Below, piece by piece: positions 38,301 to 41,300 of a DNA stretch of 64,000 nt. Made by a program: the position numbers. Source of the DNA: Escherichia coli (GTDB taxonomy: Bacteria; Pseudomonadota; Gammaproteobacteria; Enterobacterales; Enterobacteriaceae); NCBI RefSeq assembly GCF_024223415.1, contig NZ_CP100500.1. The stretch is one strand, 5' to 3'. The first letter of the stretch is position 1, and each line of letters opens with the position of its first letter.

Positions 38301-41300
38301 TAGGATTTGATATTGCCGTTGCCGATATTTATCGCGAAAGCCTCAATCCTGAACTATTCCCACCATCAACCACGCTTCTCCATGCTGAGTCGTTTGGTGC
38401 GGCAGTGGAAGCACTGGATATTCGCCCTGATAATTTTGTCCTGATTGCCACGAATAATCAGGATCGTGAAGCCCTCGACAAACTCATTGAACAGCCCATT
38501 GCATGGTTGGGGTTGCTGGCAAGTCGTCGCAAGGTTCAGCTTTTCCTGCGTCAATTGCGTGAGAAAGGCGTGGCTGAAGAACATATTGCCCGTTTACATG
38601 CGCCCGTTGGTTACAACATAGGTGCGGAAACGCCGCAGGAGATCGCCATCAGCGTGCTGGCAGAAATATTACAGGTGAAAAATAACGCGCCGGGTGGGCT
38701 GATGATGAAACCTTCTCATCCTTCCGGACACCAGCTGGTGGTGATTCGCGGTGCGGGAGATATCGCCAGTGGTGTGGCGCTACGTCTGTATCATGCGGGT
38801 TTTAAAGTGATCATGCTGGAAGTGGAAAAACCGACAGTGATTCGTTGTACCGTGGCGTTTGCCCAGGCCGTGTTCGATGGCGAAATGACGGTCGAAGGCG
38901 TCACTGCCCGCCTGGCAACCAGCTCTGCGGAAGCGATGAAACTTACCGAACGCGGATTCATCCCTGTGATGGTAGATCCCGCCTGTTCATTGCTTGATGA
39001 ACTGAAACCGCTTTGCGTGGTGGACGCTATTCTGGCGAAACAGAATTTGGGAACGCGGGCAGATATGGCACCAGTAACAATCGCGCTTGGGCCTGGCTTT
39101 ACTGCTGGGAAGGATTGTCATGCGGTAATTGAAACAAATCGCGGGCACTGGCTCGGTCAGGTGATTTACTCTGGTTGTGCGCAGGAGAATACCGGTGTTC
39201 CTGGCAATATTATGGGGCATACCACCCGACGGGTGATCCGTGCTCCTGCTGCAGGCATTATGCGATCCAACGTGAAATTAGGCGATCTGGTGAAAGAGGG
39301 CGATGTGATTGCCTGGATTGGTGAGCATGAAATTAAAGCACCGTTGACGGGGATGGTGCGTGGCTTGTTGAACGACGGACTGGCAGTGGTCGGTGGTTTT
39401 AAAATTGGTGATATCGATCCTCGTGGTGAAACGGCTGATTTCACCAGCGTTTCTGATAAAGCCCGGGCGATTGGCGGCGGCGTACTTGAAGCGTTAATGA
39501 TGTTGATGCATCAGGGCGTTAAAGCGACGAAAGAAGTGCTGGAAGTGGCTTAAATGAAAATGGCCGGATGGTATTACCCACCCGGCCTGAGACTGATGAC
39601 AAACGCCAAATTGCCTGATGCGCTACGCTTATCAGGCCTACAAGTGCATTGCAATCTATTGAATTTGCGATGTTTTGTAGGGCGGATAAGGCGCTCGCGC
39701 CGCATCCAGCATCAACAAAGCGCACTTACTTGACAATCTTTGGCCGGATGGTATTACCCACCCGGCCTTAAAATTACTGACAAATCACCGTTCCGGTTTT
39801 GCCTTCAATCCCTTCTTTCGCTTTGCTCAATACGGTAATCAGTGCTTCACGACCTGCGCGAGAGCGAGCAAACGAGGCGGCAGCTTCCACTTTAGGCAGC
39901 ATAGAACCTTTCGCAAAATGACCTTCTTCGATAAAGCGTTCAGCATCACTTAATGACAGGCGATCGAGCCACTGTTCATTCTCTTTACCGAAGTTAATGG
40001 CCACTTTTTCTACCGCAGTCAGAATGATCAGCATATCGGCATCAATCATTTCTGCTAAACGGGCGCTGGCCCAGTCTTTATCGATAACCGCACTGGCACC
40101 ACGCAGGTGGTTACCTTCACGAATAACAGGGATACCACCACCGCCAACGGTAATCACTACCTGGCCTGCTTCTACCAACGCTTTAACCGTTTCTTTTTCA
40201 ATGATATCAACCGGTTTTGGCGAGGCAACAACACGGCGATAGCCGCGACCAGCATCTTCTTTCAGAGTGTAACCCTGTTTTGTCAGTTGCTCTGCTTCTT
40301 GCTCGGTAAAGAACGAACCGATCGGCTTGGTCGGGTTGAGGAATGCCGGGTCGTTAGCATCGACTTCGACCTGGGTAACCAGCGTTGCTACAGGTTTATT
40401 AATGCCACGAGAAAGCAGTTCTTCTCTTAATGCGTTTTGTAGATCGTAACCAATATAACCCTGGCTTAAGGCAACACAGACAGACATCGGCAGCATTGGC
40501 GAGTGTGCTTCAGTTTTTGCGGCAGCTTCAAATGCCTGGTTAATCATGCCCACCTGCGGCCCGTTACCATGAGTGACGATAACTTCATGTCCCTGGGCAA
40601 TTAAATCAACAATTGCCTGAGAAGTAATTTTTACCGCTTTCATTTGCCCGGCCAGGTCATCGCCCAGCGCATTCCCGCCCAGGGCGAGAACAATTTTCTT
40701 ACTCATTTTTCCTCACTCATCATTCTTGATTGTGTATAGATCCCTGGCAGTGGTTAGAGCACGGGAGGGACAAACGGTTTGCGTCGCAGGAAACGACCTC
40801 GCCCGGCTTTGCCTGTAAAGGTGCCGTCACAGAAAATCGTTTCACCACGGGATAAGGTTCTGACAATCGCGCCCTGACAGGTAAAACCCTCCCATGGCGA
40901 GTAGTCGGCGTTGTCGTGGAGATGGCGATGCTGAATTTGTTGGCTCTGACGTGGGTCGATAATCACCACGTCGCCGTCGGAACCGGGCGCTAATAATCCT
41001 TTTTGCGGCCACAGGCCAAACAGCCTGGCGGGCATTGCGCTGGTTAATTCAACAAAGCGTTCCGGTGTTATACGTCCCGTCATCACGCCACTGGAAAACA
41101 GTAACTGCATGCGGTTTTCCACACCGGGTAAGCCATTTGGGCAGCGACTGAAATCGCCTTTAGAAATTTGCAGGCGTTGAGCCATCGAGAAGGTGCAGTG
41201 ATCGGTTGCCACCACGTCAATCGCACCATCGCTGATGCCACACCACAGTTTGTCCTGCTCGCGTACGTTACGCAGCGGTGGGCTAAGAATGAACTTCATG

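What the first reader, a model, noticed from the sequence alone, without database searches (positions are those of the whole stretch)
39562..39767. REP/BIME cluster bracketed by a duplicated 28-bp palindromic unit
Two identical copies of TGGCCGGATGGTATTACCCACCCGGCCT flank a pair of classical REP palindromes between yqeB and yqeA. The structure suggests a local duplication or a composite extragenic element, and such clusters can act as mRNA stabilisers or recombination hotspots.
Basis: seen in the sequence. Interest (0 to 1): 0.3.

Follow-up and report, generated by a model that had tools for sequence, protein, structure and literature searches.

The report
BIME-1 insertion that duplicated a terminator hairpin
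The two identical 28-base units are the single native terminator hairpin between the convergent genes yqeB and yqeA, copied when a 152-base mobile REP doublet (BIME-1) inserted there; the same whole-hairpin duplication flanks this element at dozens of other sites, which gives a footprint of how these abundant bacterial repeats insert.

Summary
TGGCCGGATGGTATTACCCACCCGGCCT occurs exactly twice in the window, at 39561-39588 and 39741-39768. The two copies bracket a Y-REP / long linker / Z1-REP doublet between yqeB (+) and yqeA/arcC (-).

The unit is not a dispersed repeat. In 5,426 complete E. coli genomes it occurs only at this locus, once or twice. 1,648 genomes carry the long allele. Most others carry an allele exactly 180 bp shorter, with one hairpin and no BIME. 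That single hairpin scores as terminator-like on both strands.

The 152-bp insert (39589-39740) belongs to a repeated element with inverted-repeat ends (GAGACTGATGACAAACGC ... GCGCACTTTGTCAACAATCTG). At narP/ccmH and uspB/pitA the same element is flanked by duplications of different local hairpins, and one-hairpin empty alleles exist there too.

Across 44 non-array sites in Escherichia and Pseudocitrobacter, 26 have a direct repeat anchored at both junctions (16-30 nt; null 1.4%). Its length tracks the hairpin span (Spearman 0.95).

Best reading: BIME-1 inserts at terminator hairpins and duplicates the whole hairpin as a variable-length target duplication. I infer staggered cuts at the hairpin base; the enzyme is unknown. 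BIME-1 presence/absence polymorphism is already known. I found no description of the hairpin duplication, but the key 1990s papers were not readable.

The parts
37928..39553 (+). yqeB coding sequence, the upstream convergent gene. Its stop codon ends 7 nt before hairpin copy 1.
   Evidence: ORF list. RefSeq annotation of identical or near-identical loci.
39561..39588 (+). Hairpin copy 1, the left target duplication: TGGCCGGATGGTATTACCCACCCGGCCT. The stem is 39562-39571 / 39578-39587. This copy keeps the upstream A-run, so on the - strand it is followed by ATTTTCATTT and scores as terminator-like for yqeA. On the + strand it is followed by the element start GAGACTGA, with no T-tract.
39589..39740 (+). 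The inserted 152-bp BIME-1 element. It is absent from the short allele carried by most E. coli genomes.
   Evidence: Alignment of long and short alleles. 88% identity over its full length to the uspB/pitA copy. Family consensus of 65 copies, 152 nt.
39589..39606 (+). Left terminal inverted repeat, GAGACTGATGACAAACGC. From memory this is the 'A' extra-PU motif of the BIME nomenclature.
   Evidence: Conserved in at least 90% of 65 copies at most positions, although positions 11-18 and 24-34 of the consensus were fixed by the search pattern used to find the copies. Pairs with the right end in a self-alignment of the consensus.
39613..39641 (+). Y-type REP (palindromic unit), GCCTGATGCGCTACGCTTATCAGGCCTAC, ending in CTAC.
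   Evidence: Inverted repeat with the second REP (I2).
39642..39676 (.). Long linker (L). It contains an IHF-consensus-like motif on the - strand: ATTCAAtagaTTG, the complement of 39652-39664, with 1 mismatch to WATCAANNNNTTR.
   Evidence: Read from the sequence. The linker is conserved across copies. Near-threshold Rfam ES036/CssrF match at 39634-39676 (-), 36.3 bits against a gathering score of 37.6. IHF binding of the BIME-1 linker is from the literature (Ton-Hoang 2012) and was not tested here.
39677..39711 (+). Second REP, starting with GTAG, in inverted orientation to the Y REP. It is Z1-type by context.
   Evidence: (I2).
39720..39740 (+). Right terminal inverted repeat, GCGCACTTACTTGACAATCTT. 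The family consensus is GCGCACTTTGTCAACAATCTG. From memory this is the 'B' motif.
   Evidence: (5 mismatches to the 18-nt consensus end).
39741..39768 (+). Hairpin copy 2, the right target duplication, identical to copy 1. It keeps the downstream tail: TTAAAATT here and TTTAAATT in K-12.
39774..40706 (-). yqeA (RefSeq name arcC, carbamate kinase), the convergent gene. Its stop codon lies 5 nt from hairpin copy 2.

Best explanation
The 28-bp unit is the native hairpin of the 40-bp spacer between the convergent genes yqeB and yqeA. In the one-copy allele this hairpin scores as terminator-like on both strands.

A 152-bp BIME-1 inserted at this hairpin. BIME-1 is a Y REP, a long linker with an IHF-like motif and a Z1 REP, framed by about 18-bp terminal inverted repeats. 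On insertion the whole hairpin ended up on both sides of the element as a direct target-site duplication.

This is the rule for the element family. At each site the duplicated segment is a different local hairpin, and its length equals that hairpin's span (16-30 nt).

Shown:
- the insertion/empty-site polymorphism at three E. coli loci;
- the junction-anchored duplications at 26 of 44 non-array sites;
- the coincidence of the duplication edges with the hairpin edges.

Inferred mechanism: the target is recognised as a structure, an extruded hairpin or cruciform. Each strand is cut at the foot of the hairpin, so the stagger equals the hairpin length. The element is joined between the staggered ends, and gap filling copies the hairpin. 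The REP-associated Y1 transposase (RAYT/TnpA_REP) is the obvious candidate enzyme. Nothing here shows which enzyme acts.

Inferred consequences:
- Each gene-proximal hairpin copy loses its T-tract and the distal copy keeps it. Both convergent transcripts would then run through the BIME before reaching a complete terminator, placing the BIME in both 3' UTRs.
- The long direct repeats allow scar-free loss of the element. This would explain why BIME-1 is either fully present or fully absent among strains.
For: (1) Exact 28-nt direct repeat abutting both ends of the insert.

(2) 1,648 of 5,426 E. coli genomes carry the long allele. Most others carry an allele exactly 180 bp shorter (152 + 28) with one hairpin and no BIME, including ST131, STEC434 and L26.

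(3) The exact 28-mer occurs in 3,882 genomes, at most twice per genome, never at another locus and never on plasmids.

(4) The same element at narP/ccmH and uspB/pitA is flanked by duplications of different hairpins. Both loci also have one-hairpin alleles: 1,505 and 1,940 genomes are long, and the rest are 176 and 173 bp shorter.

(5) A scan of species-representative genomes gave 89 loci. Among 44 non-array sites, 26 have a direct repeat anchored at both junctions with local-alignment score of at least 10. The control of mismatched left and right flanks gave 27 of 1,892 (binomial p about 1e-36).

(6) Repeat length tracks hairpin span: Spearman 0.95. 26 of 27 agree within 2 nt in at least one copy. 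The hairpin edge lies within 1 nt of the left junction in 27 of 27 sites, and within 2 nt of the right junction in 26 of 27.

(7) The one-copy allele's hairpin scores as terminator-like on both strands. In the window only copy 1 scores, on the - strand.

(8) Trabulsiella and Pseudocitrobacter corydidari have a single hairpin of different sequence in the same spacer.

(9) The 152-nt consensus has inverted-repeat ends. The hairpin-element-hairpin segment folds as single-stranded DNA into one long hairpin: -45 kcal/mol, z = -4.5.
Against: No enzyme or intermediate is shown. Known IS200/IS605-type Y1 transposases make no target duplication (Ton-Hoang 2012; Nunvar 2010), so RAYT involvement would need a new mode of action.

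Polarity at this locus rests on distribution and on distant outgroups. No close Escherichia outgroup was obtained for yqeB/yqeA.

Short alleles occur on flank haplotypes very close to long ones: L26 is 99.8% identical to the window's flanks, whereas K-12, also long, is 98.4%. Some short alleles may therefore be secondary precise losses or products of recombination.

The uspB/pitA insertion is shared with another Escherichia species (L074), so it is old or transferred.

18 of the 44 sites lack an anchored long repeat. Some of these show only 4-7 bp repeats or a hairpin on one side only.

The copies were collected with one exact 24-nt pattern, so the sample is biased to one subfamily.

Terminator function is a consensus-scan call, not a measurement.
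Confidence: 0.75

Rival explanations
1. The 28-bp unit is a module of a composite dispersed extragenic element. On this view it would be another REP-like family that travels with the BIME.
For: It is a G+C-rich palindrome that shares CCGGATG / CATCCGG-like motifs with REPs, and it brackets the BIME symmetrically.
Against: The exact unit is found only at this locus in 5,426 genomes, at most twice per genome. It is present alone, without the BIME, in most genomes. At other sites the same BIME-1 is flanked by unrelated hairpins.
Confidence: 0.02
2. The long allele is ancestral, and the short allele arose by deletion between two pre-existing similar terminators. On this view the repeat says nothing about insertion.
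For: Direct repeats flanking a palindrome are deletion-prone. Short alleles sit on haplotypes close to long ones. BIME-1 'excisions' are reported in the literature (Bachellier 1997, as cited in Chiapello 2005).
Against: This does not explain how two identical 28-bp hairpins came to abut the exact ends of a dispersed element. It also does not explain why the same geometry recurs with different hairpins at 26 of 44 sites. B2 (ST131) genomes and O157-labelled genomes carry the one-hairpin allele at this locus, and more distant genera have one hairpin here. Deletion probably does happen, but as the reverse of the insertion rather than instead of it.
Confidence: 0.08
3. The insertion and duplication are real, but the element is a classical MITE. 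It would be moved in trans by a DDE transposase that recognises the inverted-repeat ends, not by the RAYT.
For: The element has about 18-bp terminal inverted repeats, a flanking direct duplication, small size, many copies, and presence/absence polymorphism. Gap-filled duplications are the DDE hallmark. Y1 HUH transposases are not known to make them.
Against: DDE enzymes give a fixed stagger. Here the repeat varies from 16 to 30 nt with the hairpin, and is only 4-7 nt at non-hairpin sites. No insertion sequence with matching ends was identified, and this was not searched systematically. REP/BIME copy number correlates with RAYT presence according to the literature.
Confidence: 0.12
4. The duplication is made by DNA synthesis errors rather than by a transposase. 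Candidates are fold-back priming on the palindromic element or template switching at a stalled fork.
For: Both the element and the target are palindromes. The whole hairpin-element-hairpin segment can fold into one long hairpin.
Against: Fold-back extension would produce an inverted copy of the hairpin. The asymmetric loop (TATTAC) and the A.C mismatch have the same orientation in both copies, here and at the other sites. Template switching needs homology between the target and the donor flanks, and these differ at every site. The element ends are precise to the base at dozens of sites.
Confidence: 0.03

Closest known systems
BIME-1 / RIP / RIB elements of E. coli (Gilson, Bachellier, Hofnung; Oppenheim; Boccard and Prentki), equivalent to an enterobacterial REPIN (REP doublet forming a hairpin; Bertels and Rainey)
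   Same: One Y REP and one Z1-type REP in inverted orientation. They are separated by a conserved long linker with an IHF-consensus-like motif. The element is about 140-150 bp, occurs as a single copy per site, is extragenic at the 3' ends of convergent genes, and is either wholly present or wholly absent among isolates.
   Different: The papers I could read describe REP/BIME as lacking transposon signatures or having an unknown insertion mechanism. They do not mention flanking duplications. Here the element has defined inverted-repeat ends and a hairpin-length target duplication.
Bacterial MITEs (ERIC/IRU, Correia/NEMIS, RUP and others)
   Same: Short non-coding element with terminal inverted repeats, flanking direct repeats, a folded transcript, many copies and insertion polymorphism.
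   Different: MITE duplications are short and of fixed length, set by the transposase (for example TA, or 2-9 bp). Here the length is set by the target's secondary structure (16-30 nt). No parent insertion sequence is known.
CRISPR spacer integration by Cas1-Cas2, and casposon integration
   Same: The inserted DNA is joined at both borders of a palindromic repeat of about 28-37 bp by staggered attacks on the two strands. Gap repair then duplicates the whole repeat. IHF helps in E. coli (established knowledge; casposon target duplication is listed).
   Different: This is an analogy of geometry only. The inserted DNA here is a 152-bp REP doublet, the targets are unrelated terminator hairpins, and nothing links Cas1 to it.
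IS200/IS605 and RAYT (TnpA_REP) Y1 HUH transposition
   Same: REP hairpins are the recognition elements. TnpA_REP cuts single-stranded DNA at C|T near REPs in vitro (Ton-Hoang 2012). On both strands the element's 3' ends read ...TC|T(G/C).
   Different: IS200/IS605 transposition makes no target duplication and uses a tetranucleotide target, not a hairpin. RAYT-driven insertion has never been shown.
REPs 'inserted within small palindromes' in Thermomicrobium roseum and Halothiobacillus neapolitanus (Di Nocera et al. 2013)
   Same: REP elements are associated with palindromic targets.
   Different: In that report the REP is described as sitting inside a palindrome that fits a consensus. Here each flank is a complete direct copy of a site-specific hairpin.

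Membership tests
BIME-1 (REP doublet with long linker) | Two palindromic units (REPs), one Y and one Z1, in inverted orientation | tested here: met
   The Y REP at 39613-39641 ends in CTAC. The second REP at 39677-39711 starts with GTAG. The arms are 88% complementary. The Z1 rather than Z2 assignment rests on context (long linker, single copy), not on a formal subtype test.
BIME-1 (REP doublet with long linker) | [quoted passage not shown] | tested here: inconclusive
   The 35-nt linker is conserved across 65 copies. It has a motif with 1 mismatch to WATCAANNNNTTR. IHF binding itself cannot be tested with these tools.
BIME-1 (REP doublet with long linker) | Single (non-tandem) copy per site, extragenic, and present or absent as a whole among isolates | tested here: met
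   One copy lies between convergent genes. The 180-bp presence/absence polymorphism is seen across 5,426 genomes. At most 2 hairpin copies occur per genome.
REPIN (RAYT-mobilised REP doublet) | The REP doublet folds into one long hairpin | tested here: met
   Single-stranded DNA fold: -45 kcal/mol, z = -4.5, with the REPs and the ends paired.
REPIN (RAYT-mobilised REP doublet) | Mobilisation depends on the cognate RAYT | not testable with these tools
   Only literature association is available. No RAYT gene was examined here.
MITE | Terminal inverted repeats | tested here: met
   (G)AGACTGATGACAAA-CGC pairs with GCG-TTTGTCAACAATCT(G) in the 152-nt consensus.
MITE | Flanking target-site duplication of a length fixed by the transposase | tested here: not met
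   A duplication is present at 26 of 44 sites, but its length varies from 16 to 30 nt with the local hairpin and is 4-7 nt at non-hairpin sites.
MITE | A parent insertion sequence or transposase with matching ends | not tested
   No systematic search for an insertion sequence with these ends was made.
Intrinsic (rho-independent) bidirectional terminator (applies to the 28-bp unit) | G+C-rich stem-loop followed by a T-tract on each strand, at the end of convergent genes | tested here: met
   In the one-copy allele (L004) the hairpin scores on both strands: 10 pairs, 8 G-C, tails TTTAAATTAC and ATTTTCATTT. This is a consensus scan only. Termination was not measured.

The most novel reading that the evidence does not exclude
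BIME-1/REPIN elements integrate by a structure-directed reaction that targets extruded hairpins of intrinsic terminators. Both strands are cut at the hairpin foot, so the target duplication equals the hairpin.

If so, one rule would explain several things:
- why REP doublets are confined to the 3' ends of transcription units;
- why their insertion is nearly harmless, since a complete terminator is rebuilt on each outer side;
- why they can be lost without a scar;
- how tandem [BIME + hairpin] arrays grow.

It would also give the first in vivo footprint with which to test RAYT, or another enzyme, as the integrase.
Probability: 0.45. Interest if true: 0.8.

Novelty: new variant of a known kind. 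Interest (0 to 1): 0.6.

Why it matters
How REP/BIME/REPIN elements spread has been open for about 40 years. [quoted passage not shown] A 2026 preprint still calls the in vivo insertion mechanism not fully established and assumes semi-random insertion. [quoted passage not shown]

A reproducible junction signature turns the question into testable predictions about the target, the cut positions and the enzyme. The signature has three parts: precise element ends, a target that is a terminator hairpin, and a duplication as long as the hairpin.

It also matters for gene expression. The insertion turns one shared terminator into two hairpins that frame a BIME. This likely extends both convergent 3' UTRs through the REPs.

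For genotyping, these sites are reversible, scar-free indels.

The specific yqeB/yqeA locus on its own is an ordinary polymorphic BIME-1 site.

Tried and rejected
- **Dispersed 28-bp repeat family.** Rejected: the exact 28-mer is found only at this locus.
- **Chance similarity of two separate terminators.** Rejected by the mismatched-flank control.
- **Fold-back or hairpin-primed copying.** Rejected because the hairpin loops are in direct, not inverted, orientation.
- **Rfam.** Only a near-threshold ES036/CssrF match on the linker and a weak naRNA4 match. These are catalogued BIME-derived RNAs and do not explain the duplication.
- **MG1655 RefSeq record.** No REP feature is listed for this spacer in the copy held.
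- **Close outgroup for polarity.** YqeA homologues at 95% protein identity turned out to be only 81% identical in DNA and carry another REP type in the spacer. Trabulsiella and Pseudocitrobacter have one unrelated hairpin. No E. albertii or E. fergusonii locus was obtained.
- **Literature.** Eight full-text searches and twelve papers read found no description of hairpin or terminator duplication at BIME borders. Bachellier et al. 1997 (Genetics 145:551) and Gilson et al. 1991 are not held, so prior description there cannot be excluded.
- **Not attempted.** Orientation relative to replication, and RAYT presence per strain.
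Full report
**1. The observation**

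The 28-mer TGGCCGGATGGTATTACCCACCCGGCCT occurs exactly twice in the window, at 39561-39588 and 39741-39768 on the + strand. The spacing is 180 nt, and none of 100 shuffles gave a match.

Each copy is a 10-pair hairpin with one A.C mismatch and an asymmetric loop, TATTAC.

Between the copies lie:
- a Y REP at 39613-39641;
- a 35-nt linker;
- a second REP in inverted orientation at about 39677-39711.

The flanking genes are convergent. yqeB (+) stops at 39553. yqeA, which RefSeq names arcC (-), stops at 39774.

**2. The unit is locus-specific and the spacer is polymorphic**

A search of 5,426 complete E. coli genomes with window 39350-39980 found the full-length allele in 1,648 genomes. Most of the others match in two pieces spanning 451 bp instead of 631 bp, which is exactly 180 bp less.

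Alignment of K-12 (long) with STEC434, L26 and an ST131 strain (short) shows what the short allele contains. It is ...TAAATGAAAA-[one 28-bp hairpin]-TTTAAATTAC..., with no BIME.

The exact 28-mer is present in 3,882 genomes, at one or two places each. It is never at another locus and never on a plasmid. B2 strains carry a T variant (CCCATCCGGCC) that makes the stem perfect.

So the unit is not a repeat family. Its copy number (1 or 2) is strictly coupled to the presence of the 152-bp insert at 39589-39740.

**3. The single hairpin looks like the shared terminator of the two genes**

In the one-copy allele the hairpin scores as terminator-like on both strands, with tails TTTAAATTAC and ATTTTCATTT.

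In the window, copy 1 still scores on the - strand, where it is the copy distal to yqeA. On the + strand it is followed by the element start GAGACTGA. Copy 2 keeps the + strand tail.

Each gene-proximal copy has therefore lost its T-tract, and each distal copy has kept it. This comes from a consensus scan, not a measurement.

**4. The insert is a copy of a dispersed element with defined ends**

The whole 152 bp, including the non-REP ends, matches the uspB/pitA spacer at 88%.

A scan of species-representative genomes with ACAAACGCNNNNNTGCCTGATGCG returned 89 loci. They come from E. coli, E. albertii, E. whittamii, two unnamed Escherichia species and Pseudocitrobacter.

Sixty-five full copies give this 152-nt consensus:

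GAGACTGATGACAAACGCAAAATTGCCTGATGCGCTACGCTTATCAGGCCTACGTGGTTTCTGCAATATATTGAATTTGCATGATTTTGTAGGCCGGATAAGGCGTTCACGCCGCATCCGGCATGAACAAAGCGCACTTTGTCAACAATCTG

Its two ends are inverted repeats of each other. The architecture is that of BIME-1 as described in Ton-Hoang 2012. From memory, the ends correspond to the 'A' and 'B' extra-PU motifs.

**5. The hairpin duplication is general**

Two further E. coli loci show the same geometry:

| Locus | Left hairpin copy | Right hairpin copy |
|---|---|---|
| narP/ccmH | AGCCCGATGGATTTATCATCGGGCT | AGCCCGATGGCATCACCATCGGGCC |
| uspB/pitA | AAGCGGGCCAGTAAACTGACCCGCTC | AAGCGGGCCAGCTGACCCGCTC |

Both loci are polymorphic in E. coli. 1,505 and 1,940 genomes carry the long allele, and the rest are 176 and 173 bp shorter. 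The short alleles have one hairpin.

In the wider sample, 81 full copies fall into 49 sites, or 44 after removing copies inside tandem arrays. Of the 44, 26 have a direct repeat that ends exactly at the left junction and starts exactly at the right junction, with local-alignment score of at least 10. The control of mismatched left and right flanks gave 27 of 1,892 (p about 1e-36).

The repeats are 16-30 nt long and coincide with a local hairpin:
- The hairpin edge is within 1 nt of the left junction in 27 of 27 sites.
- It is within 2 nt of the right junction in 26 of 27.
- Repeat length against hairpin span gives Spearman 0.95.

The left copies are preceded by A-rich sequence and the right copies are followed by T-rich sequence: mean 4.7 A and 4.0 T in 8 nt. 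That pattern is expected if the targets were A-tract/hairpin/T-tract terminators.

About ten further sites have a hairpin on one side only, or a partial second copy. A few non-hairpin sites show 4-7 bp repeats, for example CATAC and ATAGCAT.

**6. Polarity**

Several points indicate that the element is the moving part and the duplication arises in place:
- The element is the same everywhere, while the flanking hairpins differ at every site.
- Empty alleles have one hairpin at three loci.
- ST131 (B2) genomes and O157-labelled genomes carry one-hairpin alleles at this locus.
- Trabulsiella and Pseudocitrobacter corydidari have a single, unrelated hairpin in the same spacer.

There are caveats:
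- No close Escherichia outgroup was obtained for this locus.
- The window and K-12 inserts differ at 2 of 152 positions, so the insertion is not very recent.
- A short allele (L26) has flanks 99.8% identical to the window, whereas K-12, also long, is 98.4%.
- The uspB/pitA insertion is shared with another Escherichia species (L074).

Precise loss between the direct repeats, or recombination, therefore probably also contributes. [quoted passage not shown]

**7. Mechanism (inferred)**

A duplication whose length follows the target's secondary structure argues for structure-directed cutting, not a fixed stagger. The proposed steps are:
1. The hairpin or cruciform is extruded.
2. One cut is made at the foot on each strand.
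3. The element is joined between the staggered ends.
4. Gap filling copies the hairpin.

The geometry resembles repeat duplication during CRISPR spacer integration. This is an analogy only.

The RAYT/TnpA_REP is the candidate proposed in the literature for REP mobility. It cuts single-stranded DNA at C|T in a REP-dependent way (Ton-Hoang 2012). A C|T lies 2 nt inside the 3' end of the element on each strand. However, Y1 transposases of this superfamily are not known to make target duplications. A DDE enzyme acting on the inverted-repeat ends is the main rival, though such enzymes give a fixed duplication length.

Fold-back copying is excluded because the hairpin loops are in direct orientation.

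As single-stranded DNA the whole hairpin-element-hairpin segment folds into one long hairpin: -45 kcal/mol, z = -4.5.

**8. Comparison with what is known**

The element is a member of BIME-1/RIP and is equivalent to an enterobacterial REPIN. Its presence/absence polymorphism is known.

No paper I could read mentions defined ends combined with a hairpin-length target duplication at terminators:
- Ton-Hoang 2012 contains no occurrence of 'duplicat'.
- Delihas 2011 states that REPs do not display MITE signatures.
- The REPIN papers do not mention target sites or terminators as targets.
- A 2026 preprint says the insertion mechanism is not fully established.
- Di Nocera 2013 reports REPs 'inserted within small palindromes' in two unrelated species, which is the nearest statement found.

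The primary BIME papers of 1991-1999 are not held, so I cannot exclude that flanking repeats were noted there.

**9. Verdict**

The locus itself is an ordinary polymorphic BIME-1 site.

The interest lies in what the 28-bp repeat reveals. It is a recurrent, statistically strong, structure-matched target duplication, and it makes the long-open question of REP/BIME insertion directly testable.

- Novelty: new variant of a known kind.
- Interest: 0.6, discounted for possible prior description and for the unproven mechanism.

Noticed in passing
L093 1-1259; L071 11475-12413; also L078, L079, L081 (Escherichia sp. MOD1-EC7003): There are tandem arrays of [BIME-1 + hairpin] units: period 168 x 7.5 copies and period 182 x 5.2 copies. 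Within one array the hairpins between units are not all the same (for example aggccgagttcggcct, aacgccacgatctgtggcgtt, agcctccaaaaggaggct, aggccgttcaggaagcggcct). This suggests that hairpins can be carried along with the element, or that element-hairpin-element composites move.
   Followed up: partly
L074 (Escherichia sp. MOD1-EC7003) versus L006 (E. coli), uspB/pitA spacer: The same BIME-1 insertion is present in a different Escherichia species, including the same loop deletion in the right hairpin copy. The insertion is therefore old or was transferred. Some E. coli one-hairpin alleles may be precise losses.
   Followed up: no
L101-L103 about 2434-2540 (unidentified enterobacterium; yqeA 81% DNA identity); L104 (Trabulsiella); L105 (Pseudocitrobacter corydidari): In L101-L103 the same yqeA-yqeB spacer is occupied by a different REP doublet (gtaggcccgataagacg...). 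It is flanked by weakly similar short palindromes: TCGCCGGCG on one side and TCGCCAGCGGCGA on the other. L104 and L105 each have a single unrelated hairpin there.
   Followed up: partly
window 39634-39676 (-) and 39681-39716 (+): The BIME-1 linker gives a near-threshold Rfam match to ES036/CssrF sRNA (36.3 bits against a gathering score of 37.6). The second REP gives a weak naRNA4 match. Both Rfam families appear to be BIME-derived RNAs.
   Followed up: no
window 39582 and 39762; L004 (ST131): Both hairpin copies in the window and in K-12 carry a C that creates an A.C mismatch in the stem. B2 strains have T and a perfect 10-bp stem. One-copy alleles exist with either variant.
   Followed up: partly
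L017/L047, L027/L034, L013, L035: BIME-1 copies that are not next to a hairpin are flanked by short direct repeats of 4-7 bp: CATAC, ATAGCAT, AAGAT, ATAT. The duplication length is therefore variable rather than absent at these sites.
   Followed up: no
L063 (Bacillus coahuilensis, 184-bp contig); L064 (SAR324 MAG); L095: The Escherichia-type BIME-1 pattern also matched in phylogenetically remote assemblies. The 184-bp Bacillus contig looks like contamination. L095 looks like a chance match without the rest of the element.
   Followed up: no
Element ends, window 39589-39595 and 39734-39740; consensus: On both strands the 3' end of the element reads ...TC|T(G/C). This places the C|T dinucleotide that TnpA_REP cleaves in vitro (Ton-Hoang 2012) 2 nt inside each 3' end. 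It could be coincidence or a processing site.
   Followed up: no
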